From NCBI RefSeq assembly GCF_013177435.1, contig NZ_CP053627.1, positions 840,001-872,000 on the forward strand: a stretch of DNA of 32,000 nt. Reading direction: 5' to 3'. Source of the DNA: Xylella taiwanensis. GTDB lineage: Bacteria > Pseudomonadota > Gammaproteobacteria > Xanthomonadales > Xanthomonadaceae. Numbering within the stretch: the first letter of the stretch is position 1; every line of letters starts with the position of its first letter. The notes under the pieces are model-generated. The model saw only the letters and a program-made list of their open reading frames with translations, did not search any database and had not been told where the DNA came from. A program made the translations under genes and the position numbers. Positions 4,332-21,994 of this stretch are shown here, piece after piece.

Positions 4332-5023
4332 GTGTTGGCGTCTGGGCGGTGATCCCAGCCGCTGGGCGTGGTGTCCGATTTGGTGCTCTGGTGCCTAAGC
4401 AGTACTTACCCGTCGCTGGGCAGCCATTGATCGCTTATACGCTGAAAGCGTTGGCAGCACATCCGGCAGTGTGTGGGTTGATGGTGGTTGTTGCTGATGG
4501 CGACGTTGATTGGTTCGGCTGGACGGAGGTGGCAGATAAGCCACTGCTTACTTGCAGTGGAGGCGTGACTCGTGCTGCTTCGGTATTGTCTGGTTTGCTG
4601 GCGTTGCCGCAGGTGGTGCATGCTGATGATTTCGTGTTAGTCCATGACGCCGCGCGTCCGAACTTGGCGGTGTCGGACTTAGATCGGTTGCTAGAAGCCG
4701 GCTGTGCCGATCCAGTGGGTGCGATCCTGGCGGTGCCGGTGCACGACACGCTGAAGCGTGCCGGTGGCGATGGCAGCATTGATGGTACCGAACCACGTGA
4801 ACGGTTGTGGCGTGCCTTCACCCCGCAGTTGTTTCGCCGATCTCAGTTGGTGCGTGGCCTGCAGGCGGCGGTGGCGGCTGGGATCGAGGTTACCGATGAA
4901 GCGATGGTCATGGAGCGGCAGGGCTTGCGTCCTCTGCTGGTGAAGTGTGCTGAGAGCAACTTCAAGATCACGACGCCAGATGATTTGGCGCGTTTTGAGT
5001 TCGAGTTGTCACGACGTGTTTGA
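4328..5023 (+). CDS. ispD: 2-C-methyl-D-erythritol 4-phosphate cytidylyltransferase
   Basis: The N-terminal [12 protein letters not shown] nucleotide-binding motif and the length match IspD. The ATGA start/stop overlap with ftsB implies translational coupling. Confidence 0.92.
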
Positions 5024-5035
5024 GTGGCTTAATTT

Positions 5036-5554
5036 ATGGAGTATCAAGTGATGGCGGGTTTGAACGTTCGCATCGGTCAGGGGTATGACGTCCATGCGTT
5101 TGGACCCGGTGACCATATGATGTTGGGTGGAGTGCATGTGCCTTATCGTTGCGGTGTATTGGCACACAGTGACGGTGACGTGATCTTGCATGCGCTGTGT
5201 GACGCCATGCTTGGTGCGTTGGGATTGGGTGACATTGGCCAACATTTTTCACCTTCCGATGAACGTTGGAAGGGAGCGGATAGCGCCATCTTTGTGCGTC
5301 ATTGCCATATGTTGCTGCGTGCACGTGATTGGTGTGTAGGGAATGCTGATGCAACCGTGGTCTGTGAATGGCCAAAGATCGCTCCGCATGTCAGTGCGAT
5401 GCGTGAGGGTATTGCGCGCTTACTCGAAGTTCAACCAGATTGCGTTAGTGTCAAGGCCACGACGAGCGAAGGGCTTGGTTTTATTGGCCGCGGTGAGGGT
5501 ATTGCTGCTCAGGTTGTGGTATTGCTGTATCGCCTTCAAGGTATCGTGGTGTAG
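5036..5554 (+). CDS. ispF: 2-C-methyl-D-erythritol 2,4-cyclodiphosphate synthase
   Basis: [17 protein letters not shown] and [16 protein letters not shown] are IspF motifs. The start is ambiguous between the ATG at 5036 and the ATG at 5051. Confidence 0.92.
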
Positions 5555-5774
5555 ACAAAGAAATGCTGCTTGATTGCTATAGAACCAAGCCCTGGGTGTA
5601 TTCCGCTCGATACGTGCGGGGCTGATGGTTCAGTCCCTGTGGCTCTGAGCAATGCAAAGTGAAAGTGTCGCTCTTGAGATCGTTATTGTGTAGGGTTGCA
5701 GTCACTATACTGAGCTATTTAACAAGTTCAGTCAGAGTGCCAGGGGCCCAGGTACCACTCTGTGTTGAACTGGC

Positions 5775-6317
5775 TCAGCGTCGCCTCAGTAGCACCAGCA
5801 CTGCACCGGTGCCGCCTTGCGCGGGTGGTGAAGAATGGAATGCAACCACATCCTTGCGTAAGCGCAGCCATTGATTAACCAGTTTTTTCAGTACTGGAGT
5901 GCCACCGTTGGATTGCAAGCCTTTGCCGTGGATGATACGTACGCAGCCATATTCGTGCACATGAGCGTCGAGCAGAAATTGGCGTAGTAGCGTTTCAGCT
6001 TGCACTGCGGTGGCTCCATGCAGGTCTAGTTCGTCCTGCACTGAGAACTGTCCTCGCTTGAGCCTTTGGAACAGGTGCGAAGGCAGTACGTTACTGCGAT
6101 AGCTGATAATGTCGCCAGCTTCCAATTGCGCCGATTCGCGCAGCAACCGTGCAAATTCGCTTTGCGCTTCGTTTCCTTTGTGTTGAATGATGTGTCTGTG
6201 GGGCCGTGAGCGAAGTTGGGGAGTGAAGACCGTCTCGCTGGGGCGTAGTGGCCGCACTGCGCCGATGGCGGCACGGAACAGTGCGGCATCATTATCGTTG
6301 TCATTGGGCTGTGTCAT
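5775..6317 (-). CDS. smrB: Smr-domain endonuclease (SmrB/YfcN-like)
   Basis: C-terminal Smr domain (LDLHGATAVQAE...IIHGKG...). The N-terminal DAALFRAAIGAVRPL resembles the conserved SmrB N-terminal motif. At 180 aa it is similar in length to E. coli SmrB. Confidence 0.7.
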   Translation of the reverse strand: MTQPNDNDNDAALFRAAIGAVRPLRPSETVFTPQLRSRPHRHIIQHKGNEAQSEFARLLRESAQLEAGDIISYRSNVLPSHLFQRLKRGQFSVQDELDLHGATAVQAETLLRQFLLDAHVHEYGCVRIIHGKGLQSNGGTPVLKKLVNQWLRLRKDVVAFHSSPPAQGGTGAVLVLLRRR

Positions 6318-6904
6318 GGGGTACAGGGTTGTGTGTAATGCTCGAAGGAATGCTTCCGACTTCCCCTGGTGGATTACTCCGCTTGGAGACTAGAAGTGGA
6401 TGGAGGAGGGCAAAGAGAGAACACATCCAGAAGTGAATCCTTTATAGGAGGCACACGTTGGTAGTAGTTCAACGAGCTACATAAGGCTAATGGTGGAGCA
6501 ATCTTGGAGTTAACTCTGAAATTTGGAAACAATAAACGTCTTTCGCTGGGTGAGAAGCGAGACGGATGATCGCCATTCAGTAAAGAGTTTGGGAAGAGGG
6601 AGCAAGAGTGTGATTGGTTTATTAGCGTATTTCTGGTTGGTGAAAGTGCAGCTTGAAGCGAAACTCGAATGGGTAGTGCTGCTCAAAATGTTGAGTCATC
6701 TGGGGTTGTGGTGAGGTTGGCACGCTGCCGCCGGTTTTCTGGAGGAGGGCAGGCAGCGTATCTTCGGCTTAAGTGGAGCTAAGGTTGTCAGTGCTCTGGA
6801 TTGCAGCGTTCCTGAACATTAAATGCTGTATTCGGTAGTGAATTTCTTAAGTTAGCTTATTTAGAATGGTGTTCCGTTAGCTTTTCGATCATATTCATAG
6901 ATGT

Positions 6905-6934
6905 CTATCGTTAAGACATATGCCTTAACGATAG
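6905..6934 (-). terminator. Perfect 11-bp stem-loop just downstream of the SMP-30-family gene
   Basis: CTATCGTTAAG (6905-6915) pairs with CTTAACGATAG (6924-6934) around an 8-nt loop. There is no clear U-tract, so its function (terminator or binding palindrome) is uncertain. Confidence 0.3.
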
Positions 6935-6949
6935 CGATAACATGAGTAT

Positions 6950-7972
6950 TCAGTGTTTACTCTCCTTTACTTTTATTTTTAGACGGTAAATTGCGTGGCT
7001 TGCTGTTACATAAAGAATGGGGTTATTCGCTTTATCCAGTGAAAAATTCATATTACTGACAGTGCCAGGTAGGATAATTTTTCCAAGACGTTTTCCTTTG
7101 GGGGAAAATATTTGAATACTTCCTTCACTACTTGACCATATATTACCAATGGCATCGGTGGCGATACCGTCTGGTATGCCATGTGAAACAGTTGCAAGCA
7201 CTCTTCCATTTTTGAGTGATTTATCTTTTTTAATAGTGTAAGCGACAATTCTGCTGTTGAGATTGGAAGAGTTAAAATTATAGGCTAATTCACTGTCTGC
7301 GATATAAAGAGTCTTTTCATCAGGGCTGAGAGCGATCCCATTAGGTGCTTTGACAAGAGGAGTTTTCAAGCGAACAATGGTTCCCGTTTTTGGTGAGTAT
7401 CGATAGCTGTAATCTCCTCCTTGTACTGCTGTACCGCCGTAGCTTTCTTTAGGATTATTGATACCAAATGCAGGGTCAGTGAACCATATATCGCCACTGC
7501 GATCGACGATGATATCGTTTGGACTGTTCAGTTTATGTCCTTGATAAGCATCGATGACTATCATCCACTTTCCATCTTTTTCGAGCCGTTCTATCGCTCT
7601 TTTCCCATGTGAAGCTGCGAGTAAGCGTCCTTCATTGTCTAATGCATGGCCATTTTGGAAATGTGACGGTTCCAAAAAGACGGAAACTCCTTCTCCTTCT
7701 TGCCAACGAAGCACACGGTTTGCCTTGACATCGCTCCAGATAAGGCTACCGTCAGGTAAGGCTTGAGGTCCCTCAAGCCAAATCCCTTTGTCATAGATGG
7801 TGATGAGTTCAGGTTCTTGATCGATAAGAGTTTCAAAAAGTGGATCTTCTTTCTGAACTTGAGCGGTGTGAATTTTAGTGTGATGTTGTGTTGCTATCCC
7901 GTAAAAGGGAAGCGTTAACAAGAATCCGGCTATGATGATGCGAGTAAAATAATTATTTCGTTTGGTTTTCAT
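6950..7972 (-). CDS. Secreted SMP-30/gluconolactonase/LRE-family six-bladed beta-propeller protein
   Basis: The N-terminus looks like a signal peptide (MKTKRNNYFTRIIIAGFLLTLPFYGIA). Family motifs are present: WLEGPQALPDGSLIWSDVKANRVLRW, LNSPNDIIVDRSGDIWFTDP, PNGIALSPDEKTLYIADS, IPDGIATDAIGNIW. Codon usage is AT-rich. Confidence 0.85.
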   Translation of the reverse strand: MKTKRNNYFTRIIIAGFLLTLPFYGIATQHHTKIHTAQVQKEDPLFETLIDQEPELITIYDKGIWLEGPQALPDGSLIWSDVKANRVLRWQEGEGVSVFLEPSHFQNGHALDNEGRLLAASHGKRAIERLEKDGKWMIVIDAYQGHKLNSPNDIIVDRSGDIWFTDPAFGINNPKESYGGTAVQGGDYSYRYSPKTGTIVRLKTPLVKAPNGIALSPDEKTLYIADSELAYNFNSSNLNSRIVAYTIKKDKSLKNGRVLATVSHGIPDGIATDAIGNIWSSSEGSIQIFSPKGKRLGKIILPGTVSNMNFSLDKANNPILYVTASHAIYRLKIKVKESKH

Positions 7973-8572
7973 GAAATCATCCTTTTTTGTTTCTTAATGA
8001 ATTACATATGGCTATTGTTTGAGGGCCTATTTTAGGGTGGTTATTTTACAAAACTATCACAGGACCAGCCAGCAGTATTTTATGGGTATTTGTAGAGATT
8101 GCATTAATACATGTCACTTGATCTCATGATGAGAAATTAAGAAAGGGAGCATGTTTTTTTGCTGGTAAATTTCGCATACATCTTGGCTTGTTGTGTAGTG
8201 ACGCATCAGATGTGGGTGCTTGGAGAAAATTTTTGTCGTTGTGGCAATTGTCGTTTTATAAATGTGGAATATTATTTTTATGTTGATGGTTGTTGTGTTA
8301 TTTTTTTCTGGGTTTCTATCGTGGTTGAGCGAGTTTCTGGGTGGTTTTAAAATTGCAAGAAATTTTATTTGTCTAATTTATGGTTCATATAAAATCTTAG
8401 GATGGGAAATTCTTTATTTTGAGTAAATTGCGACCAATGGTTTTATCCATTTTTGATGGTATGCCGCTGCCGTGCTGTTGCTCAAGTAAAATGGAGTGAT
8501 GATGTGACTATTGATATTTCAGAAGTATATTCGTGCATGTGCTGGTGATACTGCTACGGTGTCGATAGATGT

Positions 8573-10219
8573 TTACAAGTTCTGATAGTTTGGGCCTGAG
8601 CCGCCTTCTGGGGTGATCCAGTCGATAATTTGGTATGGGTCCTTGATGTCACAGGTCTTGCAGTGGATGCAGTTGGCTGCATTGATGTGCAGGCGTTTGT
8701 TGGTTGTTGCGGTGGTGTCTTCGATGATTTCGTAGACGTTGGCCGGACAGAAACGTGTGCATGGATTGCCGTATTCCTGTACGCAGCGTGTTACGCACAG
8801 TTCGGGGTTGGCGACTTTCAGATGGATGGGTTGATCCTCATCGTGCACAGTGGCGGCAAAGTAGACGCTTTGCAGGCGGTCACGTGGCGGTAGTGTGCGT
8901 TGCACGTAGTCGCGTTTGGGCTGCTCGTGTTTGCCGAGTCGTTCCAGGGTGGCCCAGTCTGGTGTGTTCTGCAATGTCCATGGGGAGGCGCCACCTGTAG
9001 CGGTCTCCCAGGCCGCGTTAAGCAGGCCGAACCATAAACCTTTTTTGAAACCCGGCTTGATGTTACGTACTTGTTTTAACTCGGCCATAGCCTTCGAAGC
9101 ACGCAGCTTGGCGTCGAATCCATAGGGGGTGAGTTGGGTGGCGACCAGATGTTCGGCAGCGAGCATGCCGCTGCGGATCGCTTGGTGTGTTCCCTTGATC
9201 TTGGGGACGTTGAGTAAGCCGGCGGTGTCACCGATCAAGAGTGCACCTGGCATCTCCACTTTTGGGAGTGATTGCCAGCCGCCGGTGACGATCGCGCGTG
9301 CGCCGGACGAAAGGATGCTACCGCTTTCCAGAAGCGGTTTGATGAGTGGGTGGTTTTTCCATTGCTGGAATGCTTCCCAAGGTTCGTACTCTGGATCGTG
9401 GTAGTCCAGGCTGCTGACATAACCGAGTGCGATGCGATTGTCATTCAGGTGGTATAGGAAACCGCCGCCGTAGGTATGTGTATCGGCGGGCCAGCCGAGG
9501 GTATGTACGATCTTGCCTGGAGAGCCACGTTCCTTGGGTACTTGCCACAATTCTTTGATACCGATGGAATAGGTCTGCGGATCGCTGTTTTGATCCAGAG
9601 CGAAATGTTTAATCAGGCGTTTGGTCAGGTGGCCACGTGCGCCTTCGGCGAGTACGGTGACCTTGGCATGGATGGCAATCCCAGCAGTGAAACTGGGTTT
9701 GTGTGTTCCGTTTTTGGCGATACCCATGTCGCCAATGCGCACTCCAATGACTTGGCCAGCCGCATCATGCAGGGTTTCAGTGGCGGAGAAGCCTGGGTAA
9801 ATGTCCACGCCCAGCGTCTCGGCCTGAGGTGCCAACCAGGCACATAATGCGCCAAGGCTGACGATAAAATTACCGTGGTTGCGCATACTTGGTGGCATGA
9901 TCGGAAATCTGTGTGCGTTATCTTTGCTCAGGAGCCAGAATTCGTCTTCGGTCGCGGGTACGCAGATTGGAGGCGGGGCGTCGCGCCAGCCGGGAAGTAG
10001 GCTATCCAGGGGGGCAGGTTCGATCACTGCGCCAGAGAGAATATGGGCGCCGATGGTGCTGGATTTTTCGATCACACATACTGACAATCCAGGATTGAGT
10101 TGTTTCAGCCGGATTGCAAACGCTAAGCCGGCTGGGCCAGCCCCAACAGTGACAATGTCGTATTCCATCACCTCACGTTCGGTGGCGTTTACTCCTGTCT
10201 CCTGTTCCGTTGCCAACAT
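8573..10219 (-). CDS. Electron transfer flavoprotein-ubiquinone oxidoreductase (ETF-QO)
   Basis: The FAD-binding motif YDIVTVGAGPAGL and the C-terminal 4Fe-4S Cys cluster (CTRFCPANVY...CIHCKTCDIKDP) are present. The ORF is open to 10306, but the ATG at 10219 is preceded by AGGAG at 6-nt spacing and gives a family-typical length. Confidence 0.9.
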   Translation of the reverse strand: MLATEQETGVNATEREVMEYDIVTVGAGPAGLAFAIRLKQLNPGLSVCVIEKSSTIGAHILSGAVIEPAPLDSLLPGWRDAPPPICVPATEDEFWLLSKDNAHRFPIMPPSMRNHGNFIVSLGALCAWLAPQAETLGVDIYPGFSATETLHDAAGQVIGVRIGDMGIAKNGTHKPSFTAGIAIHAKVTVLAEGARGHLTKRLIKHFALDQNSDPQTYSIGIKELWQVPKERGSPGKIVHTLGWPADTHTYGGGFLYHLNDNRIALGYVSSLDYHDPEYEPWEAFQQWKNHPLIKPLLESGSILSSGARAIVTGGWQSLPKVEMPGALLIGDTAGLLNVPKIKGTHQAIRSGMLAAEHLVATQLTPYGFDAKLRASKAMAELKQVRNIKPGFKKGLWFGLLNAAWETATGGASPWTLQNTPDWATLERLGKHEQPKRDYVQRTLPPRDRLQSVYFAATVHDEDQPIHLKVANPELCVTRCVQEYGNPCTRFCPANVYEIIEDTTATTNKRLHINAANCIHCKTCDIKDPYQIIDWITPEGGSGPNYQNL

Positions 10220-14789: not shown

Positions 14790-16049
14790 ATGTCTTCTGT
14801 CCCTGTCCTTTCACCCGCCGTTTCCACCAGTTATGCGCAGCGCGTTGCGTTTGTGACTGAGATTGCCGGACGCCTGCATTCATATGGCACTACCGCACAG
14901 CGGCTGGAAGCATCGTTGGTGGCTCTGAGTCAGCAACTTGGATTGGATTGTGAGCCATGGTCTAATCCGACGGGCATTATTCTCAGCTTCAGTGATCCAG
15001 CGAAGACAATCGGCTCTAGTGATATTACCCGAGTGATCCGGTTGGCACCGGGTGAAAACGATCTGTACAAGCTTAGTGTGGCTGACAATGTCGCTCAAGC
15101 GGTAGCCTCTGGTCGAATGAGCATCTCCCAGGGGCACACTGCATTGCGCCGGTTGGATCGCGAGTTGGATCGGCGTTCCAAAATGATACAAGTGTTCGGT
15201 TTCGGGCTGGCCGCGGCTGGTGTTGCTGGACTGTGGAAGCTGCCGTGGCTGGATATCGCCACAGCTTCGACGGTTGGTTTGCTGATTGGCCTGCTGACAC
15301 AGTACACCGACCACCGTCCCGCGACGCGTGAGGCCAGTGAGGCATTGGCTGCATTGCTGGCTGGTTTCGTTGCTACGCTGGTAGCCACGTTGGTTGGTCC
15401 GATCAACCTTAATACGGTGATTATTGCTTCGGTAGTGGTATTGCTACCCGGTATGTCACTGACCAACGCTGTGAACGAATTGTCAAGCCAGCATTGGGTC
15501 TCAGGTACAGCACGGTTGGCTGGCGCACTGACTGTGGTATTCAAGCTCACGGTTGGGGCTGTGATCGCAGTGAATTTGTGCAAGCTGATTGGGTTGAAAC
15601 CGCAAATATACGTAGCCCAGACACAGCCGCAATGGATTGAATGGGTGGCACTGTTGACCACGGCTTATGGGTTCGCGGTGCTGTTCAAGGCACGTTTACG
15701 CGATTACCCATGGGTGATGGCTGCTGCAATGGCTGGTTATGTCATCGCGCGTTATGCCGGGAAATTATGGGGCAATGCCGAAGGCGTGTTTCTGTCGGCG
15801 ATGGCATTGACCGCAGCAGGCAATTTATTTGGCCGTTTGATGCCTAAACCTGGTGCGTTGATTCGTGTACCAGGGATCATCATGCTGGTGCCCGGCAGTA
15901 CTAGTATGCGTGGGTTCATGGATGTGGTTGAACAGCAAAGCATCAATGTGGGCCAGGATGAATTGCTAAGTGTCACAAATGTGGTGATGGCGCTTGTGGC
16001 GGGTTTGTTGTTTGGCAATCTACTGATACCGACGCGTAAGAATCTGTAG
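14790..16049 (+). CDS. Threonine/serine exporter (ThrE) family membrane protein, fused two-part form
   Basis: The 419-aa protein has a soluble N-terminal region followed by about 10 hydrophobic segments. The motifs LLPGMSLTNAVNEL and MLVPGSTSMRGF are typical of the ThrE/ThrE_2 halves. Confidence 0.75.
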   Translation: MSSVPVLSPAVSTSYAQRVAFVTEIAGRLHSYGTTAQRLEASLVALSQQLGLDCEPWSNPTGIILSFSDPAKTIGSSDITRVIRLAPGENDLYKLSVADNVAQAVASGRMSISQGHTALRRLDRELDRRSKMIQVFGFGLAAAGVAGLWKLPWLDIATASTVGLLIGLLTQYTDHRPATREASEALAALLAGFVATLVATLVGPINLNTVIIASVVVLLPGMSLTNAVNELSSQHWVSGTARLAGALTVVFKLTVGAVIAVNLCKLIGLKPQIYVAQTQPQWIEWVALLTTAYGFAVLFKARLRDYPWVMAAAMAGYVIARYAGKLWGNAEGVFLSAMALTAAGNLFGRLMPKPGALIRVPGIIMLVPGSTSMRGFMDVVEQQSINVGQDELLSVTNVVMALVAGLLFGNLLIPTRKNL

Positions 16050-16181
16050 TCATGTGCTGAACTGTAATTTCGGGGTTATTTTATTGCTCACGCTGTACGC
16101 GATTTTTTTAATATAAAGCCATAAAATTTTTTTATTTAATTATTTAGTGAAAAAACGAATGAAATTCTATCCGTATTTGGA

Positions 16182-16197
16182 TTATCCACCTGGATAA
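16182..16197. promoter_or_regulatory. Perfect palindrome TTATCCA-CC-TGGATAA upstream of the peptide array
   Basis: A 7-bp perfect inverted repeat separated by 2 nt. The half-site plus spacer, TTATCCACC, is one mismatch from the DnaA-box consensus TTATCCACA. It is a candidate operator of unknown function. Confidence 0.3.
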
Positions 16198-16263
16198 GTG
16201 CTGTTGTTTGATTTTATTGATGTTATTTTCCAGTAGTATTTTCTCTATTGACAATGTTTCCCG

Positions 16264-16326
16264 TATGTGATTTCCTTCGGGATGTTCTCTAAATAATGTG
16301 TCTTTCGTCACATAATTTTAATGTGT
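16264..16326. promoter_or_regulatory. Cluster of four ATGTG(A/T) motifs 55-117 nt upstream of the first peptide gene
   Basis: TATGTGA lies at 16264-16270, TAATGTGT at 16294-16301, TCACATA (inverted) at 16308-16314 and TAATGTGT at 16319-16326. The last two form the imperfect palindrome CACATAATTTTAATGTG. Confidence 0.3.
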
Positions 16327-16380
16327 AACACGTTAAATAGAGTGGAGTACATCAACGTCAACTTTGGAGAGTAAGCAACT

Positions 16381-16554
16381 ATGCGTACGATCAATGCAGC
16401 AGAAATGGAAGAAGTTTCTGGTGGCAGTTTGGGCCTGGCGGCTCTTGGGGTAATTGGGACAGCTATTACCTTATATAAAAATGTTTCTTATATTTATAGT
16501 TCAGTTACAGATTTTATAAGTGGCTTTGGTTTGGGTTACAATAAAAAGTCTTAA
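16381..16554 (+). CDS. Double-glycine-leader peptide P1 (57 aa), putative class II microcin/bacteriocin precursor
   Basis: Translated by hand; too short for the ORF track. Sequence: MRTINAAEMEEVSGG|SLGLAALGVIGTAITLYKNVSYIYSSVTDFISGFGLGYNKKS. GGAGAG lies about 10 nt upstream. The 15-aa leader ends in GG. Confidence 0.75.
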   Translation: MRTINAAEMEEVSGGSLGLAALGVIGTAITLYKNVSYIYSSVTDFISGFGLGYNKKS

Positions 16555-16610
16555 GTGTGTTTATCTAGAGATTTTCTAAAAATTATTGAAATTTAGGAGT
16601 TAATACAGAG

Positions 16611-16778
16611 ATGCGTGAGCTTAGTAAAGTGGAAGTAGACCAAGTTTCTGGTGAAGGTATGTGGGAAGATATCGGTCAAACTACAGGTACGGTTTTCCGT
16701 TGGTTTGCAGACAGCATCACTTCATTATTTGGTGCAGGTTTTTTCTCATTATTTAGTATCTTTAATAAAAAATCTTAA
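16611..16778 (+). CDS. Double-glycine-type-leader peptide P2 (55 aa)
   Basis: Translated by hand; not in the track. Sequence: MRELSKVEVDQVSGE|GMWEDIGQTTGTVFRWFADSITSLFGAGFFSLFSIFNKKS. AGGAG lies upstream. The leader is homologous to P3-P7 but has Glu at the -1 position. Confidence 0.7.
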   Translation: MRELSKVEVDQVSGEGMWEDIGQTTGTVFRWFADSITSLFGAGFFSLFSIFNKKS

Positions 16779-16823
16779 GCGAATTTAATAGAGCTTTTTA
16801 TTGAAGTCAGGAGTTAATTAGAG

Positions 16824-16985
16824 ATGCGTGAGATGAGTGAATTGGAAATTGAAAGGATTTCTGGTGCGGGCATATGGGATGATTTGAGTACAGGTGTCAA
16901 TATTGTCTTTCATTGGGTTACAGTCAATATTGATGATATTAAGGCATTCTTTAATGGATTCTATCAAGGTTACAATAAAAAATAA
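16824..16985 (+). CDS. Double-glycine-type-leader peptide P3 (53 aa), core paralogous to P2
   Basis: Translated by hand; not in the track. Sequence: MREMSELEIERISGA|GIWDDLSTGVNIVFHWVTVNIDDIKAFFNGFYQGYNKK. AGGAG lies upstream. Confidence 0.7.
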   Translation: MREMSELEIERISGAGIWDDLSTGVNIVFHWVTVNIDDIKAFFNGFYQGYNKK

Positions 16986-17040
16986 TAAATCCGTTTGTTG
17001 ATTTTTTATAAATTAATCAAGTCGAAAGGAAAATTTAGAA

Positions 17041-17262
17041 ATGCGTGAGCTTAATCAAGTGGAAGTTGAACAGATTTCTGGTGCAAGTGGTGGTGGTCGT
17101 GGCGGGCTTTTAGGCGCAATTTTTAATAATATATTAGGTGGTTTGTCCCCTGTATTTAACAATAGCCCTGTTTCTTTTAATCCTTTTAACATTTTTAACC
17201 CTTTAAAAATTTTAAATCTTTTAAAGCCTGCTTCGTCTGTCCTTGAGAATAGTAAATCTTAA
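17041..17262 (+). CDS. Double-glycine-type-leader peptide P4 (73 aa), FNP-repeat core
   Basis: Track ORF. Sequence: MRELNQVEVEQISGA|SGGGRGGLLGAIFNNILGGLSPVFNNSPVSFNPFNIFNPLKILNLLKPASSVLENSKS. AAAGGA lies upstream. Confidence 0.8.
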   Translation: MRELNQVEVEQISGASGGGRGGLLGAIFNNILGGLSPVFNNSPVSFNPFNIFNPLKILNLLKPASSVLENSKS

Positions 17263-17325
17263 CCTTAACCTTTACCTTTAGAGTAATTTTTTAACGTTTC
17301 ATAAATTAAAGAGGTGAGTTTAGAA

Positions 17326-17535
17326 ATGCGTGAGCTTAATCAGGTAGAAGTTGAACAGATTTCTGGTGCAAGTGGTGGTGGTCGTGGTGGGCTTTTAGGC
17401 GCAATTTTTAATAATATATTAGGTGGTTTGTCCCCTGTATTTAACGATAGCCCTGTTTCTTTTAATCCTTTTAACATTTTTAATCCTTTAAAACTTTTAG
17501 AACCTATTACTAAACTTCTGAGTGGTAAGTCTTAA
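17326..17535 (+). CDS. Double-glycine-type-leader peptide P5 (69 aa), near-duplicate of P4 with a different C-terminus
   Basis: The track ORF starts at 17314. The ATG at 17326 aligns with the other cassettes and follows AGAGGTGAG. The first 56 codons differ from P4 at 5 nt, 4 of them synonymous. Confidence 0.8.
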   Translation: MRELNQVEVEQISGASGGGRGGLLGAIFNNILGGLSPVFNDSPVSFNPFNIFNPLKLLEPITKLLSGKS

Positions 17536-17586
17536 ATCTGTTTGTTAGGCTTTTTTAAATTAATAAAATGAATCGGGGGGTTAGAG

Positions 17587-17829
17587 ATGCGTGAGCTTAA
17601 GCAAGTGGAAGCTGAACAGGTTTCTGGTGCATTTTCTATTTCTATTGCAATTTTTAATAATATAGTGGGTGGTTTATCTTCTGAGTTTAAGGATGCCGCC
17701 ATTTCTTTTAATCCTGTTAACATTTTTAACCCTTTAAAAATTTTTAAACCTGCTATGCCTAGCCTTGAGACTAGTGAGTCTAATATTATGGCTAGCCTTT
17801 GGGGTCGTTGTTTTAAAGCTAAGTCTTAA
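17587..17829 (+). CDS. Double-glycine-type-leader peptide P6 (80 aa)
   Basis: Track ORF. Sequence: MRELKQVEAEQVSGA|FSISIAIFNNIVGGLSSEFKDAAISFNPVNIFNPLKIFKPAMPSLETSESNIMASLWGRCFKAKS. It shares the IFNNI.GGLS and SFNP.NIFNPLK blocks with P4 and P5. Confidence 0.78.
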   Translation: MRELKQVEAEQVSGAFSISIAIFNNIVGGLSSEFKDAAISFNPVNIFNPLKIFKPAMPSLETSESNIMASLWGRCFKAKS

Positions 17830-17875
17830 AATTGGTTTGTTAGTTTTTAAATTAATGAATGAGAAGAATTTAGAG

Positions 17876-18070
17876 ATGCGTGAGCTTAATCAAGTGGAAG
17901 TTGAACAGGTTTCTGGTGCATGTTTGAATACATTTTTTAGTAATTTATTAAGTGGTTTGTCCGGTTTGTTTAGTAGTAGTACTGTTTCTACTGATCCTAC
18001 TACGTCTAGCCTTGCGGCTAGTGCGTCTAGCTTTCTGACTAACTTTCTGAGTGCTTTTTTAAAGCGTTAA
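17876..18070 (+). CDS. Double-glycine-type-leader peptide P7 (64 aa), Ser/Leu-rich core
   Basis: The track ORF 17765-18070 is over-extended. The ATG at 17876 aligns with the cassette starts. Sequence: MRELNQVEVEQVSGA|CLNTFFSNLLSGLSGLFSSSTVSTDPTTSSLAASASSFLTNFLSAFLKR. Confidence 0.75.
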   Translation: MRELNQVEVEQVSGACLNTFFSNLLSGLSGLFSSSTVSTDPTTSSLAASASSFLTNFLSAFLKR

Positions 18071-18165
18071 GTCTTAAATCTGGCTACTAGATTTTTTATA
18101 AACCAAAGATTTGTTGTAAAAGGCAATCTTAAACCATTATAAGTTGTATCTTTAGCTTCGTTTAT

Positions 18166-18195
18166 GCCCCTTCATAGTTAATTCTCTGAAGGGGC
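18166..18195 (+). terminator. Stem-loop downstream of the seven-cassette array
   Basis: GCCCCTTCA (18166-18174) pairs with TGAAGGGGC (18187-18195): a 9-bp perfect stem and a 12-nt loop. The T-tail (TCTTG) is weak. Confidence 0.45.
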
Positions 18196-18532
18196 TCTTG
18201 ATAGCAGCACAGCAGTTGCACTGCATAGTGTTATCTTCACTATGACTGTTGATGGATAGTGTCATGGCATTGTGTGTGGTCATGTTTTTTTATGTGTTTC
18301 GATTGACACCCATTGTTTGATGTCGGGTTAACTTAGATGGAAGATTAAAGTTGCCATCCATCATGTCTGATCAATCTCCTGATTGTGCGAATGGATTGTT
18401 TGAGTCGCTGTGTTTATTTAAGGAGGAATACTAATAGATAGCATAGATAGCAACGTATTTTGGATTGGAAATTGCCGGGTATGTTCCCGGCCCCAAGACG
18501 CAGGGGATGCGTCAATCAAAAGGAGTAAGTCA

Positions 18533-18784
18533 ATGCGTACATTATCTGTTGCTGAGGTTTCAGAGGTTTCTGGAGGTAACCCTATGACTGATGGTGCATC
18601 AATTGGGGCTGGTTTCGGTGCTTTTGGTAGCATTATGACTGGTGCTACTTCAGCGGCTACAATTGGCGCATCTGCCGCCACATGGGGATTGCTTGGTGCG
18701 GCTGCGGGAGGAGGTTGGATGGTTGGAACATTTATTTATAATAGATTCTTCGCTCCTTCTATGTCTGCTTCTATTGCTTATTGA
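18533..18784 (+). CDS. Glycine/alanine-rich double-glycine-leader bacteriocin precursor P8 (colicin V/microcin V-like)
   Basis: Sequence: MRTLSVAEVSEVSGG|NPMTDGASIGAGFGAFGSIMTGATSAATIGASAATWGLLGAAAGGGWMVGTFIYNRFFAPSMSASIAY. The leader closely resembles the microcin V leader MRTLTLNELDSVSGG. AAGGAG lies 7 nt upstream. Confidence 0.85.
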   Translation: MRTLSVAEVSEVSGGNPMTDGASIGAGFGAFGSIMTGATSAATIGASAATWGLLGAAAGGGWMVGTFIYNRFFAPSMSASIAY

Positions 18785-18793
18785 GGAATAAAA

Positions 18794-19039
18794 ATGATGA
18801 ATATACATGAGCTATCACCTTCTGAAGTAATGCAAATTGATGGATCCGGCATGGCTGAATGGGTCGATACAGGCGCTGCTATTGGCATGATTGCAGGTTA
18901 CGCTATTCAGGGAGGTTTGGCTGGTGCAAGCCGAGGTGGACTTATTGGAGCTGCTGGTGGATTTTCTGGTGGATTAGGTTGGGGGGTTGGAACATTTATT
19001 TATAATAGATTTTTATCTCCTTATCCGATGATTCGTTAA
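18794..19039 (+). CDS. Glycine-rich bacteriocin precursor P9, paralog of P8
   Basis: Sequence: MMNIHELSPSEVMQIDGS|GMAEWVDTGAAIGMIAGYAIQGGLAGASRGGLIGAAGGFSGGLGWGVGTFIYNRFLSPYPMIR. The leader fits the consensus if cleaved after Gly-Ser. It shares the W.VGTFIYNRF block with P8. GAGGA lies upstream. Confidence 0.8.
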   Translation: MMNIHELSPSEVMQIDGSGMAEWVDTGAAIGMIAGYAIQGGLAGASRGGLIGAAGGFSGGLGWGVGTFIYNRFLSPYPMIR

Positions 19040-19050
19040 GTTTAATCTGT

Positions 19051-19077
19051 GTGGGCACTATGATTTTGGGTGCCCAC
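19051..19077 (+). terminator. Stem-loop between P9 and the first immunity-like gene; possible partial terminator or mRNA-stability element
   Basis: GTGGGCAC (19051-19058) pairs with GTGCCCAC (19070-19077): an 8-bp perfect GC-rich stem and an 11-nt loop, followed by CTTT. Confidence 0.4.
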
Positions 19078-19093
19078 CTTTAAAGGTGATGAA

Positions 19094-19390
19094 ATGAACA
19101 AGTTTAAAGCCATGATGATTGCCTTCGATGATTGTATTGCATCGAATCTTTTGGCGGAAGGGGTCAGCAGACTCCGGATGAAAATGGTTTTTTTTACGGG
19201 GTTTATTTTTGTATTTTTATATATTGTGTTTACGGATATAGATATTGCCTCATTCGATGTTGGGATGTGCGTGATACTTGTGATTGCTCTCTCTATAGGC
19301 TTGTTATGTATAAATCGTTATTTTAAAAGTCATTTTCATGCTGATGGGAGTCTAAAGAAAAAAAAGAATAGTTCTGAAGATGCAGTTTGA
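19094..19390 (+). CDS. Small two-TM membrane protein, putative bacteriocin immunity protein (copy 1)
   Basis: The track ORF starts at a GTG at 19070, inside the hairpin. The ATG at 19094 follows AGGTGA. Hydrophobic segments are MVFFTGFIFVFLYIVF and MCVILVIALSIGLLCI. It lies directly downstream of the P8/P9 precursors. Confidence 0.6.
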   Translation: MNKFKAMMIAFDDCIASNLLAEGVSRLRMKMVFFTGFIFVFLYIVFTDIDIASFDVGMCVILVIALSIGLLCINRYFKSHFHADGSLKKKKNSSEDAV

Positions 19391-19459
19391 ACAAGAATAA
19401 TGGGTCAGGTATAAATCAGTGAAACTTAAAATAATACTATTACAGGTGGAGCATTCAGC

Positions 19460-19738
19460 TTGAAATCTATGATTGTTGCATTTAATAATTTCATTAAATT
19501 ATATCTTCCGGTGTGTGGCAGGTTCTTTGTGAAACTTTTTGGATTTATTAGCTTTATTCTAGTGTTTTTATATTCTTCGGATATAGATCTTTCCTCATTG
19601 GATATTGGAGGAGCGGCGATACTTGCGGTTGCTCTCTCTGCATGTTTATTATTAACAAATCATTATTTTGACATTCATTTTCATGATGATGGGAGTCTTG
19701 AAGAAAAAAAGGATGCCTCTGATGAGGTAACTAGGTAA
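19460..19738 (+). CDS. Small two-TM membrane protein, putative immunity protein (copy 2, paralog of 19094-19390)
   Basis: It aligns with copy 1 across the shared pattern (M)I.AF..(I), F..FI.VFLY, DID..S.D.G, IL..ALS..LL..N.YF..HFH.DGSL..KK. The start is the TTG at 19460 (GGTGGAG upstream) or the ATG at 19469. Confidence 0.6.
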   Translation: MKSMIVAFNNFIKLYLPVCGRFFVKLFGFISFILVFLYSSDIDLSSLDIGGAAILAVALSACLLLTNHYFDIHFHDDGSLEEKKDASDEVTR

Positions 19739-19744
19739 CTGGCC

Positions 19745-19835
19745 CTGAGTAATCGGAGTAGGCACAAATCAGCGCGGTTTGAAACGTTACTATGACAAAT
19801 GGAGCACGCAGTCTTTTTTAAATGATTGTTGCGGT
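19745..19835 (+). pseudogene. Decayed third copy of the immunity-gene 5' region
   Basis: The spacer plus start after copy 2 (...AAATCAG...TGAAAC...TACTAT.ACA..TGGAGCA..CAG...ATGATTGTTGC) aligns with the spacer plus start between copies 1 and 2 (19391-19480). Homology is lost about 12 nt into the ORF. Confidence 0.5.
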
Positions 19836-20878
19836 ATTTTCTAAATGCGGATCCCTTCATGGAAATTGTTTCCCTTGCGCCATCCAGATCCAGAGAAGCG
19901 GCTATTTACTACAGCCGTGGTTAGCATTGAGCGATCCGGCGATGAAAAACATGCTTTACGAGATCACCTCCTGGGGTTGTATGGTCAAAATGACAGAGTG
20001 AGATTTTTCCGTCATTCTGTCGTACAAAGGCTGATCGATCCTCGGCATGCAATATGACCCATCTTGCCACGAGGCGACGTCAAGTGGTGAGTGCTGGCAC
20101 TGGCAGAGGGATAGTGACGTAGGCATAGCATGATGTGCTTTCAGGTGGGATCGCTTGGCTGTGCTGGTGATGGTGGATTGCCGAACCGTTGGTTGAACTC
20201 CGTAAAATTGAAACTCTGATTTCTGAAGGGCTTTAGAGATTGATCTCAAGTCTGTTGATCAGTGTTGCTAACAGCGTCGTTAGTGTGACTCTTGTCACAA
20301 TATTGAATGTTTGATAGATCAAGTCGCGTGGAAGGCGTCGCCGTGAGTAGGCGGGGCAGCCGCGTGACATATGTTATGTTGGCTGGATTGGTGGTGAACA
20401 CCAATGGGGTGAACATATTTTGGCGGCCTTAGCTAATTTGGGGTCAAGTGCCGCCCAGGGGCTTGAAGTTCGTTGTGTAATTGCTTGTGCGTTGCTTATC
20501 TGTCCCTATCGATGGTGATCATACAGTTGCCCGGCAATGTGGGTTCCAGGTGATGTCCCCAGTACATCTGCAGGATGTGCGATGTATCCACGGTAGTGGG
20601 AACGATATGTTCAGGATGCCACCTTTAATCCGGAAGATGTCAGCGGTGAGAGGCCACACATTGGTGCGGACGTGAGCGGGGCTGTTGCGGTGGCATTGGT
20701 CTTTCTGCCGGCAATAGATCACCGGTGTGTGGATTCATGGAGGATCAAAGTCACGGTTGTTGAGTACTGGGATCGCGCCTATGGCTACCAAGTTTTTTTA
20801 GGTGGATGACACATTGGTGCTGGATGCTGCTTTTCCCTTGCTTGCATCGGGGGGGATTGTTAGGCTACCCGGCTTTAA

Positions 20879-21994
<1,116 letters not shown>

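What the first reader, a model, noticed from the sequence alone, without database searches (positions are those of the whole stretch)
16540..18110. Cassette architecture: conserved 5' and 3' junctions bracket variable cores, with mosaic members
At the DNA level each unit shares a 5' block (TTAGA[GA]ATGCGTGAGCTTA...GTTTCTGGTGCA). Most also share a 3' block consisting of the last codons plus stop (AA[GA] TCT TAA, giving C-termini ...KKS, ...SKS, ...GKS, ...AKS). This is followed by ATCTGTTTGTT/AATTGGTTTGTT and TTTTTAAATTAAT-like spacer sequence. P4 and P5 are about 97% identical for 168 nt and then diverge completely. P6 re-uses internal P4/P5 blocks (IFNNI.GGLS, SFNP.NIFNPLK) within an otherwise different core. 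P7 still carries the AAGTCTTAAATCTG junction, but its own stop (CGT TAA) uses the TAA that overlaps the start of the block, so the ancestral AAG TCT TAA reading is lost. Conserved flanks around swapped interiors are what repeated unequal or homologous recombination between cassettes would produce. That would amount to a built-in diversification mechanism for the secreted repertoire.
Basis: seen in the sequence. Interest (0 to 1): 0.7.

Follow-up and report, generated by a model that had tools for sequence, protein, structure and literature searches.

The report
Mosaic microcin-like peptide gene array
This stretch of the Xylella taiwanensis chromosome holds seven tandem small genes for secreted, bacteriocin-like peptides that have evolved by duplication and piece-swapping between neighbours, a pattern already known from other bacteriocin loci and not a special diversification machine.

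Summary
Window 16381-18070 (+) holds seven small ORFs (P1-P7, 53-80 aa). Each has its own ribosome-binding site and a 15-residue double-glycine-type leader (MRELNQVEVEQ[IV]SGA). Most end in AAR-TCT-TAA. The 5' and 3' junction motifs occur only in the array and are not expected by chance.

The window is Xylella taiwanensis. The array lies in a low-GC island between thrE and mreB. The same locus in X. fastidiosa and in a Xylella MAG carries 2-5 related cassettes.

Mosaicism is statistically supported:
- P4 and P5 are 96.7% identical over 181 nt, against 44% outside that segment.
- P5 and P6 combine P4-like heads with P7-like tails.
- Cross-species quartet and triplet tests show leader/5' modules grouping by genome and 3' modules by ortholog.
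- Near-identical complete X. fastidiosa multiplex genomes differ by one precise 276-nt cassette.

Recombination between cassettes is therefore supported. A "built-in diversification mechanism" is not. I found no recombinase, inverted repeats or silent/expressed split, and the X. taiwanensis assemblies examined show the same array.

The best reading is a class II microcin-like precursor array exported in trans by a C39-peptidase ABC transporter, evolving by birth-and-death. The closest analogue is the set of pneumococcal blp hybrid genes. A preprint already calls XF1306, which gene numbering places in this locus in strain 9a5c, a highly expressed microcin. I class this as a new member of a known kind, of moderate interest.

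The parts
16381..16554 (+). P1: 57-aa prepeptide, leader MRTINAAEMEEVSGG, ends YNKKS*
   Evidence: ORF. Orthologues are first in the array in every Xylella locus. The 4 leader differences from X. fastidiosa are all synonymous.
16611..16778 (+). P2: 55-aa prepeptide of the 'GxW(D/E)DxG' type, leader MRELSKVEVDQVSGE (Glu at -1), ends FNKKS*
   Evidence: The core is orthologous to X. fastidiosa P0009/P0010 and to the head of MAG cassette 3. Weak leader-only match to Pfam MccV.
16824..16985 (+). P3: 53-aa prepeptide, leader MREMSELEIERISGA, ends YNKK* (the Ser codon of the 3' block is replaced by TAA)
   Evidence: The core is orthologous to MAG cassette 4 (z = 18.8), but the two leaders differ at 12 of 45 nt.
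17041..17262 (+). P4: 73-aa prepeptide. Its upstream spacer and leader are orthologous to those of the last MAG cassette. Its tail is homologous to the middle of P6.
   Evidence: 90% over 83 nt to L014 cassette 5. (P4 tail vs P6 tail, 0/2000 shuffles)..
17326..17535 (+). P5: 69-aa prepeptide, a chimera of a P4-type head and a P7-type tail
   Evidence: 181 nt at 96.7%. (tail ACTAAACTTCTGAGTG...TAAGTCTTAAATCTG matches P7). (1/2000).
17587..17829 (+). P6: 80-aa prepeptide with a P4-like head and a tail collinear with the P7 tail, read in a shifted frame at the end (…CFKAKS*)
   Evidence: 84.7% over 98 nt to P4. (P6 tail vs P7 tail score 38.5, 0/2000). (0/2000).
17876..18070 (+). P7: 64-aa prepeptide, last cassette, orthologous to the last cassette of the Xylella MAG. 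The stop codon overlaps the out-of-frame AAGTCTTAA block.
   Evidence: P7 tail vs MAG5 tail collinear, including downstream sequence.. (z = 9.5).
17034..17214 (+). P4 copy of the recently homogenised or duplicated segment. The P5 copy is at 17319-17499.
   Evidence: 96.7% identity inside against 43.7% outside, 0/300 permutations. Four of the 6 differences are synonymous (read from the alignment).
16050..20000 (.). Low-GC island (34-43% GC against 52-58% in the flanks) between thrE (14790-16049) and mreB (20912-21994). It holds the array and the downstream peptide and membrane-protein genes.
   Evidence: composition. (flanking genes).
18533..18784 (+). Glycine-rich microcin V-like prepeptide G1 (leader MRTLSVAEVSEVSGG)
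   Evidence: The orthologue is truncated or frameshifted in several X. fastidiosa strains.
18794..19039 (+). Glycine-rich prepeptide G2. Its C-terminal half is paralogous to G1.
   Evidence: repeat D9, 84% over 57 nt. Weak Pfam MccV match.
19094..19390 (+). Small membrane protein (98 aa), an immunity-like candidate
   Evidence: No Pfam family. Function is inferred only from its size, its hydrophobic segments and its position after G1/G2.
19469..19738 (+). Paralogous small membrane protein (89 aa), an immunity-like candidate
   Evidence: No Pfam family.
16248..16255 (+). TTGACAAT block upstream of P1, invariant in all Xylella loci aligned. It may be a promoter or operator element.
   Evidence: alignment. 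The sigma-70 scan did not call it, so this is only a conserved motif.
18166..18195 (+). GC-rich hairpin about 95 nt after the P7 stop; possibly the end of the array transcript
   Evidence: the 76-nt stretch 18140-18215 that contains the hairpin folds to -24.9 kcal/mol, z = -3.2. The terminator scan did not call it, because the U tract is weak.

Best explanation
P1-P7 are a tandem array of independently translated precursor genes for small secreted peptides of the double-glycine-leader (class II microcin-like) kind, on the Xylella taiwanensis chromosome between thrE and mreB.

Proposed mode of action:
1. Each 53-80-aa prepeptide carries a 15-residue leader. This is shown.
2. The leader is recognised and cut after Gly-Ala or Gly-Gly by the C39 peptidase domain of an ABC exporter encoded elsewhere in the genome. 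This is inferred; the exporter is not in the window.
3. A 4.4-7.1 kDa mature peptide is released and most likely acts as a bacteriocin against competitors in xylem or in the insect vector. This is inferred.

The 'cassette architecture' comes from how the family evolves. The repeated unit is spacer + ribosome-binding site + leader + core + AAR-TCT-TAA. The conserved leader/5' block and the short 3' junction give neighbouring cassettes stretches of homology. Unequal crossing-over then adds or removes whole cassettes, and gene conversion or crossing-over inside cassettes joins heads and tails of different types. This part is shown by breakpoint tests and by strain comparison.

P4-P6 are a lineage-specific expansion in X. 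taiwanensis, inserted between the ancestral neighbours P3 and P7. The process is ordinary homologous recombination acting over evolutionary time, not a programmed switch.
For: Identity and context. The window is base-identical over 13.2 kb to X. taiwanensis CP087686 and CP011800. Homologues are found only in Xylella at E <= 0.001 among 5.8 billion proteins.

Leader.
- It is 15 aa, with Gly at -2, Ala/Gly at -1, Val/Ile at -4 and -7, Glu at -8 and Leu at -12. This layout matches MccV's MRTLTLNELDSVSGG (MccV sequence from my own knowledge).
- The only family matches are weak and confined to the leader: MccV, lactococcin G and BlpC.
- Leader differences between species are synonymous: 4/4, 2/2 and 2/2.
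- Peptides with the same leader motif in Rhodanobacter, Oceanicaulis, Limnobaculum, Enterobacillus, Serratia and an Enterobacteriaceae MAG have Peptidase_C39 ABC transporter and/or HlyD genes within the same 8-kb locus.
- X. fastidiosa has cvaB, XF1220 (PMC3036931).

Expression. XF1306 is described as a newly identified microcin among the most highly expressed CDSs of X. fastidiosa 9a5c (bioRxiv 10.1101/2025.08.15.669762). It lies between XF1305 (the gene listed next to thrE) and XF1309 (mreB), which is this locus.

Recombination.
- P4/P5 share a sharply bounded 181-nt block.
- Triplet MaxChi tests support six mosaic cassettes, each at p <= 0.0035.
- The quartet of pauca cassettes 2/5 and multiplex cassettes A/B has 3 sites grouping by genome and 0 by ortholog in the 5' part, against 1 and 59 in the 3' part (Fisher p = 1e-4).
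- The leader of MAG cassette 4 is 1 nt from its neighbour's leader and 12 nt from the leader of its core orthologue P3.
- The P4 upstream spacer plus leader is 90% identical to that of the last MAG cassette.
- Copy number ranges from 2 to 7 across Xylella.
- One 276-nt cassette is the only structural difference between near-identical multiplex loci.

Size. The predicted mature peptides are 4.4-7.1 kDa and moderately hydrophobic.
Against: - No exporter (C39 ABC transporter or HlyD protein) lies within the 32-kb window. I could not locate one in X. taiwanensis with these tools.
- No immunity gene lies between cassettes. Spacers are only 45-65 nt, and the antisense ORFs are not membrane-like. Seven toxins would then lack obvious cognate immunity, unless the two membrane proteins at 19094-19738 serve that role.
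- No curated family is matched above threshold.
- Antibacterial activity has not been shown for any member that I could read about.
- P2 has Glu at the -1 cleavage position, and several X. fastidiosa cassettes are frameshifted, so some members may be decaying.
- The breakpoint tests use short sequences that are partly hard to align, and they are not corrected for multiple testing.
- AlphaFold models are of low confidence (pLDDT 65 and 52).
Confidence: 0.75

Rival explanations
1. There is no recombination. The conserved 5' and 3' junctions only reflect purifying selection on the export leader and on a C-terminal KKS motif, and the cores diverged by point mutation after old duplications.
For: The leader is clearly under purifying selection; differences between species are synonymous. 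The C-terminal NKKS/DKKS motif recurs in different cassette types across species, so part of the junction conservation is functional.
Against: Selection on the peptide cannot explain several results.
- Synonymous-site identity holds across 181 nt of P4/P5, with abrupt edges that reach 7 nt upstream of the ATG.
- The nearest relative switches along P5, P6, pauca cassette 2, and MAG cassettes 3 and 4.
- Paralogues share genome-specific substitutions, CLSE against CLTD.
- Near-identical strains differ by an exact 276-nt cassette.
Confidence: 0.04
2. The array is a programmed, high-frequency diversification system. This is the first reader's 'built-in mechanism', comparable to pilE/pilS gene conversion, shufflons or diversity-generating retroelements.
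For: The array has tandem homologous cassettes with conserved flanks and mosaic members. Small tandem duplications of 8 and 9 nt distinguish X. fastidiosa strains. One read-assembly carries a frameshifted P2 (P0007), consistent with loss of one T from the T6 run.
Against: - Every cassette has its own ATG and ribosome-binding site, so there is no silent-donor/expression-site split.
- There is no recombinase, reverse transcriptase or meaningful inverted repeat in or near the island, and no tRNA gene.
- The X. taiwanensis loci returned are base-identical over 13.2 kb, and the other contigs read were reported to have mostly the same neighbouring proteins. P1, P2, P5 and P6 each occur as a single protein cluster on 31-32 contigs.
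- Within X. fastidiosa, the array peptide sets are identical among the several strains of each group.
Confidence: 0.04
3. The peptides are exported through the same leader-dependent route but are not toxins. They could be signalling pheromones, or they could have a surface, biofilm or host-directed role. That would explain the lack of cassette-linked immunity genes.
For: No immunity genes are interleaved. Double-glycine leaders also serve peptide pheromones; there is a weak BlpC leader match, and Michiels 2001 and Dirix 2004 are cited in PMC2761928. The cores do not resemble any known bacteriocin family.
Against: - No two-component sensor is adjacent.
- Seven divergent, fast-evolving paralogues with presence/absence variation between strains fit antagonism better than signalling.
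- The locus also holds two microcin V-like glycine-rich peptides and small membrane proteins.
- A preprint classes the X. fastidiosa member XF1306 as a microcin, citing functional data I could not read.
Confidence: 0.17
4. The array is a decaying remnant, made of mostly non-functional pseudogene copies left by past duplications.
For: In X. fastidiosa, cassette 1 is truncated in multiplex strains, copy 2 is frameshifted in one strain, and the glycine-rich genes are frameshifted or truncated in several strains. P2 has an atypical Glu at -1, and P3 lost its terminal Ser codon.
Against: All seven X. taiwanensis ORFs are intact, with a ribosome-binding site and a full leader. Leaders evolve under purifying selection. 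XF1306 in 9a5c is reported as highly expressed. P4-P6 are recent gains rather than losses.
Confidence: 0.08

Closest known systems
Pneumococcal blp bacteriocin-immunity region (Streptococcus pneumoniae)
   Same: It has tandem class II bacteriocin precursor genes with conserved double-glycine leaders. Strains differ in gene number. Hybrid genes (blpKN, blpMN1/2, blpQM, a blpJ+K fusion) arise by contraction or recombination between neighbours (PMC4517551). This is the same evolutionary behaviour as P5, P6, pauca cassette 2 and MAG cassette 3 here.
   Different: blp is Gram-positive. It has interleaved immunity genes, its own BlpAB exporter and a BlpRHC quorum-sensing module at the locus. None of these is in this window. 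There is no sequence homology beyond the leader type.
Class IIa microcins of Enterobacteriaceae (MccV, MccL and relatives)
   Same: They share the 15-aa double-glycine leader of the same layout, a mature size under 10 kDa and no obvious modification genes. Their structure is modular: the C-terminus is thought to set uptake and the N-terminus activity, and MccV and MccL share only the C-terminal 32 aa (PMC10233263).
   Different: Those clusters have 4 genes (toxin, immunity, CvaA-like, CvaB-like) and usually one toxin. Here there are seven toxin-like genes in tandem, no linked exporter and no cassette-linked immunity. The Pfam MccV model is matched only weakly, and only in the leader (16.9 bits against a cut-off of 27).
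Xylella fastidiosa microcin-like genes (cvaC XF0262-0264; XF1217-1219 beside cvaB XF1220; XF1306)
   Same: XF1306 lies in the same thrE-mreB locus in 9a5c. It is called a newly identified, highly expressed microcin. The window's P1-P7 are homologues of that locus's cassettes.
   Different: X. taiwanensis has seven cassettes, three of them (P4-P6) lineage-specific. I found no published description of the array architecture, its copy-number variation or its mosaicism. The classic cvaC triplet is at a different locus and belongs to the glycine-rich type.
Domain shuffling in colicins and S-pyocins, and orphan toxin cassettes of CDI/Rhs systems (own knowledge)
   Same: In these systems, conserved segments flanking variable toxin modules allow homologous recombination to create new combinations.
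   Different: Those are large multi-domain proteins with tightly linked immunity genes. In CDI/Rhs, the downstream orphans lack translation starts and must recombine into the main gene. Here every cassette is a complete gene.

Membership tests
Double-glycine-leader peptides / class II microcins | N-terminal leader of about 15-18 aa with Gly at -2, Gly/Ala/Ser at -1, hydrophobic residues at -4, -7 and -12, and acidic residues around -8 | tested here: met
   P1 and P3-P7 fit exactly (MRELNQVEVEQ[IV]SGA; P1 MRTINAAEMEEVSGG). P2 has Glu at -1. The same motif in other genera lies in the same 8-kb loci as C39 ABC transporter and HlyD genes.
Double-glycine-leader peptides / class II microcins | Mature peptide below 10 kDa, gene-encoded, with no modification enzymes required (class IIa) | tested here: met
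   The predicted cores are 38-65 aa and 4.4-7.1 kDa. No modification genes are in the island.
Double-glycine-leader peptides / class II microcins | Dedicated C39-peptidase ABC exporter plus membrane-fusion protein, normally in the same cluster | tested here: not met
   None is in the 32-kb window. Presence elsewhere in X. taiwanensis could not be tested. X. fastidiosa has cvaB, XF1220.
Double-glycine-leader peptides / class II microcins | Cognate immunity gene next to each toxin gene | tested here: not met
   Spacers are 45-65 nt and hold no ORF. The antisense ORFs are not membrane-like. Only two small membrane proteins follow G1/G2, at 19094-19738.
Double-glycine-leader peptides / class II microcins | Antibacterial activity of the mature peptide | not testable with these tools
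   The only support is an indirect literature statement for XF1306. The primary source, Duarte and Da Silva 2013, was not available.
Pfam PF17508 MccV (microcin V sequence family) | Profile match above the gathering score | tested here: not met
   The best match is 16.9 bits against a cut-off of 27, and it covers only leader residues 1-29.
Programmed cassette-switching systems (pilE/pilS-type gene conversion, shufflons, DGRs) | One expression site plus silent partial donors, or a site-specific recombinase with inverted repeats, or a reverse transcriptase with template repeats | tested here: not met
   All cassettes are complete genes with a ribosome-binding site. There are no meaningful inverted repeats. 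No recombinase or reverse transcriptase is among the neighbours.
Programmed cassette-switching systems (pilE/pilS-type gene conversion, shufflons, DGRs) | Heterogeneity within a clonal population | not testable with these tools
   No read-level data were available. The two loci whose DNA was returned are identical to the window, and the other 22 contigs read were reported as similar.
blp-like mosaic bacteriocin arrays | Tandem leader-bearing precursor genes with hybrid genes and strain-to-strain gene-number variation | tested here: met
   The comparison is with PMC4517551.
blp-like mosaic bacteriocin arrays | Locus-encoded exporter, pheromone and two-component regulator, and interleaved immunity genes | tested here: not met
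   All are absent from the window.

The most novel reading that the evidence does not exclude
The thrE-mreB array could be a leader-anchored 'module library'. In it, N-terminal (activity) and C-terminal (uptake) halves of immunity-less microcins are reshuffled by homologous recombination. The resulting lineage-specific repertoires (2-7 cassettes, at least 10 architectures) would then decide which Xylella strains or subspecies can exclude each other in xylem or in the insect foregut. Producers would be protected because they lack the uptake receptor, not because they carry immunity proteins.
Probability: 0.15. Interest if true: 0.6.

Novelty: new member of a known kind. Interest (0 to 1): 0.4.

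Why it matters
Xylella is a quarantine plant pathogen. Its colicin V-like and microcin-like genes are among its most highly expressed genes.

This locus is a second bacteriocin-like locus that has hardly been described. It differs sharply between species, between subspecies and even between near-identical strains. It could therefore contribute to strain competition and serve as a fine-scale typing marker.

More generally, it is a clean example outside the Enterobacteriaceae of how a conserved export leader doubles as a recombination substrate that reshuffles microcin modules. It does not reveal a new molecular mechanism.

Tried and rejected
- Pfam and NCBIfam scans of all nine peptides and the membrane ORFs gave only sub-threshold, leader-only matches.
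- The search for related loci on genome contigs failed with a 13-sequence alignment. With a narrower alignment it found 7 pattern matches, none confirmed by tblastn.
- A degenerate leader DNA pattern returned 15 loci in other genera but no Xylella, although the window's own sequence fits the pattern. That collection therefore cannot be used to say anything about Xylella.
- The sigma-70 promoter and terminator scan found nothing above shuffle expectation.
- The inverted-repeat search found only short AT-rich chance pairs. There are no tRNA genes.
- AlphaFold2 on the P2-type and P4-type alignments gave pLDDT 65 (one long helix) and 52. These are too weak to interpret, so no fold search was run.
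- Zaini et al. 2008 (PMC2293194) is not held. The source cited for XF1306 function could not be read.
- I could not locate the X. taiwanensis C39 ABC exporter. I ran no further search on it, because hits cannot be filtered by taxon.
- The draft assembly L050 shows N-containing, broken cassettes. I therefore ignored draft assemblies where possible and checked that copy-number classes are also seen in complete genomes.


Full report
**What is there**

Window 16381-18070 (+ strand) contains seven small ORFs:

| Cassette | Coordinates |
|---|---|
| P1 | 16381-16554 |
| P2 | 16611-16778 |
| P3 | 16824-16985 |
| P4 | 17041-17262 |
| P5 | 17326-17535 |
| P6 | 17587-17829 |
| P7 | 17876-18070 |

Start-to-start spacing is 213-289 nt. 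Each ORF is preceded by a purine-rich ribosome-binding site and the hexamer TTAGAR.

It occurs nowhere else in the window, and none is expected by chance. The 3' block AARTCTTAA occurs six times, all inside the array, against 0.32 expected. P3 carries AAATAATAA at that position.

The array sits in a 34-43% GC island (about 16050-20000) within 52-58% GC housekeeping DNA. thrE (14790-16049) lies upstream and mreBCD-pbp2-rodA lies downstream.

**Where it comes from and who else has it**

The window is base-identical over 13.2 kb to Xylella taiwanensis CP087686 and CP011800.

Profile searches of 5.8 billion proteins found homologues only in Xylella. A full HMMER pass over 1.84 billion cluster representatives added a few distant relatives of unstated origin. 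These share the leader and a GxW(D/E)DxG start of the core.

I fetched the encoding contigs of the X. fastidiosa and Xylella MAG homologues. The array occupies the same thrE-mreB locus throughout the genus, but its content varies:

- X. taiwanensis has seven cassettes.
- Some X. fastidiosa pauca strains and the MAG have five.
- 9a5c, the Ann-1 type and the sandyi-type loci (L049, L051) have three.
- Multiplex strains have two to three plus a truncated first cassette.
- Overall there are at least ten architectures.

**What the cassettes encode**

All seven peptides begin with a 15-residue leader. It has Gly at -2, Ala/Gly at -1, Val/Ile at -4 and -7, Glu at -8 and Leu at -12. This is the layout of the microcin V leader (MccV sequence from my own knowledge).

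Curated libraries give only sub-threshold, leader-restricted matches to MccV, lactococcin G and BlpC.

The leader is translated and constrained. Differences between species that leave the peptide unchanged are all synonymous: 4/4 for P1 against pauca, and 2/2 for P7 against MAG cassettes 4 and 5.

I scanned species-representative genomes with a degenerate DNA pattern for this leader. It found microcin-like peptides in Rhodanobacter, Oceanicaulis, Serratia, Enterobacter, Limnobaculum, Enterobacillus and others. In the seven loci I examined, Peptidase_C39 ABC transporter and/or HlyD genes lie within the same 8-kb locus. The leader is therefore the export and cleavage signal of C39-peptidase ABC exporters.

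No such exporter is in the window, so export must be in trans. X. fastidiosa has cvaB, XF1220 (PMC3036931), next to further double-glycine peptides (PMC2761928; preprint). I could not check X. taiwanensis.

Predicted mature peptides are 38-65 aa, 4.4-7.1 kDa and moderately hydrophobic. AlphaFold models are of low confidence.

Downstream of the array are two glycine-rich microcin V-like prepeptides (18533-18784, 18794-19039) and two paralogous small membrane proteins (19094-19390, 19469-19738). The membrane proteins look like immunity proteins. No immunity-like ORF lies between P1 and P7.

**Literature**

The classic X. fastidiosa colicin V-like genes (XF0262-0264) are at another locus (PMC11885251; PMC10233263).

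A 2025 preprint lists XF1306 as a 'newly identified microcin' among the most highly expressed CDSs of strain 9a5c. Its supplement lists XF1305 next to the thrE entry and gives XF1309 as mreB. By gene numbering, XF1306 therefore belongs to this array.

I found no description of the array's architecture, copy-number variation or mosaicism, and nothing on X. taiwanensis. Public annotation calls the proteins hypothetical.

**Is the mosaic real, and is it recombination?**

*Within the window*

- P4 and P5 are 96.7% identical over 17034-17214 / 17319-17499, against 43.7% outside. No permutation out of 300 reaches the observed chi-square.
- The block starts 7 nt upstream of the ATG. Four of its six differences are synonymous (read). 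Constraint on the peptide therefore cannot explain it.
- For scale, thrE is 88% identical between X. taiwanensis and X. fastidiosa. The event is much younger than the species split.
- The tails differ in origin. The P4 tail aligns with the middle of P6 (0/2000 shuffles). The P6 tail is collinear with the whole P7 tail (0/2000). The P5 tail matches the end of P7, with a 13-nt deletion (5/2000).
- Triplet MaxChi tests place significant switches of nearest relative in P5 (1/2000), P6 (0/2000) and P4 (5/2000).
- The spacer and leader upstream of P4 are 90% identical to those upstream of the last MAG cassette. That cassette follows the P3 orthologue directly in the MAG. P4-P6 are therefore an X. 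taiwanensis-specific expansion between the ancestral neighbours P3 and P7.

*Across species*

- MAG cassette 3 has the head of the P2/P0009 type and the tail of the P3 type (7/2000).
- Pauca cassette 2 has the head of pauca cassette 5 and the tail of pauca cassette 4 (0/2000).
- MAG cassette 4 has the P3-type core but a leader 1 nt from its neighbour's leader and 12 nt from the P3 leader (3/2000).
- In a quartet of pauca cassettes 2/5 and multiplex cassettes A/B, the 5' 136 columns have 3 sites grouping by genome and none by ortholog. The 3' part has 1 and 59 (Fisher p = 1e-4). This is the signature of gene conversion of the 5' module.

*Between strains*

- Multiplex locus L017 differs from complete genome CP000941 (M12, L024) over 1.9 kb by one SNP and one precise 276-nt cassette. 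Complete genomes CP087993 and CP136972 carry the same duplicated peptide set as L017.
- Other strains differ by an 8-nt duplication that frameshifts a copy, and by a 9-nt in-frame repeat.
- Two pauca lineages with 99.5% identical thrE carry 5 and 3 cassettes with different alleles. This suggests replacement of the locus by recombination with another lineage. X. fastidiosa is naturally competent (own knowledge).

**What is not supported**

Nothing indicates a dedicated or rapid mechanism.

- Every cassette is a complete gene.
- There are no meaningful inverted repeats, and no recombinase or reverse transcriptase.
- The X. taiwanensis loci returned are base-identical, and the other contigs read were reported to have mostly the same neighbouring proteins.
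- P1, P2, P5 and P6 each occur as one protein cluster on 31-32 contigs. The only variant is a frameshifted P2 in a single 1.6-kb read assembly.
- Much of the 5' conservation is simply the leader doing its job.

The block TCTTAA + ~10 nt + TAGATTTTTT is homologous across cassette types. However, the out-of-frame state of the last cassette is shared with the MAG orthologue (…AAA TAA TAA TTAACTCTTGAATCTGG). P5 and P6 appear to have regained a …KS* ending by indels in P7-like tails.

**Comparison with known systems**

The behaviour matches the pneumococcal blp region. There, tandem double-glycine bacteriocin genes vary in number and form hybrids such as blpKN, blpMN and blpQM (PMC4517551). It also fits the modular view of class II microcins, in which the C-terminus sets uptake and the N-terminus sets activity (PMC10233263).

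Membership of class II microcins is met for the leader and for size. It is not met for a linked exporter, for cassette-linked immunity or for the Pfam MccV profile. Activity is untested. I therefore call the peptides microcin-like.

**Verdict**

This is a new, expanded member of a known kind of locus. Its local relevance for Xylella strain competition and typing is real, but its general novelty is modest. Interest is 0.4.

**Main caveats**

- The sequences are short and partly hard to align.
- The six triplet tests are not corrected for multiple testing.
- The exporter and the activity are not demonstrated in X. taiwanensis.
- Draft assemblies can mis-assemble such arrays, as in L050.

Noticed in passing
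window 16650-16655 (P2 codons 14-15): P2 reads ...VSG-E|G. It has Glu (GAA) at the -1 cleavage position, where all orthologues and paralogues have Ala or Gly (GCA/GGA). This may impair leader processing of P2.
   Followed up: partly
window 16739-16744 (T6 run inside P2): One 1.6-kb read assembly (protein P0007) carries a frameshifted P2 that ends ...GAGFSHYLVSLIKNLKRI, consistent with loss of one T in this run. It could be a sequencing error or real slippage.
   Followed up: no
window 18533-19738; X. fastidiosa loci L003, L008, L009, L014: Two glycine-rich microcin V-like prepeptides and two paralogous small membrane proteins follow the array and are intact in X. taiwanensis. In X. fastidiosa and the MAG, the same genes are variously frameshifted, truncated or reduced to one membrane protein.
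   Followed up: partly
L017-L026 and L048 (X. fastidiosa multiplex), about 4460-7200 in locus coordinates: In multiplex strains the first glycine-rich gene is cut to 21 codons (MRALSVSEVSEVLGGNALTDC). Prophage genes (integrase, SSB, DUF5131) follow instead of mreB. A prophage seems to have integrated in or next to this bacteriocin locus.
   Followed up: no
window 16248-16255 and about 16308-16325: A TTGACAAT block and a (T/C)GTCACATAATTTTAATG block upstream of P1 are conserved in all Xylella loci aligned. The sigma-70 scan calls no promoter there. They may be a regulated promoter or an operator.
   Followed up: partly
window 18166-18195: A 9-bp GC-rich hairpin (GCCCCTTCA...TGAAGGGGC) lies about 95 nt after the P7 stop. 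The 76-nt stretch containing it folds to -24.9 kcal/mol (z = -3.2). The U tract is weak, so the terminator scan did not call it.
   Followed up: partly
X. fastidiosa cassettes: L024 3897-3920, L021 4192-4200, L018 3892-3899: Short tandem repeats inside the cores expand and contract between strains: a 24-nt GLQSLFTT unit, a 9-nt SSI unit and an 8-nt frameshifting duplication. The threonine/serine-rich tails also vary in length.
   Followed up: partly
window 6950-9000: This is a second lower-GC stretch (41-44%). It contains an SMP-30/gluconolactonase-like ORF on the minus strand (6950-7972). I did not examine it further.
   Followed up: no
Genome-contig collection: A leader DNA pattern that the window itself matches returned no Xylella record from the species-representative genome collection. 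Xylella seems to be absent or masked there, so negative results from that collection do not apply to this genus.
   Followed up: no
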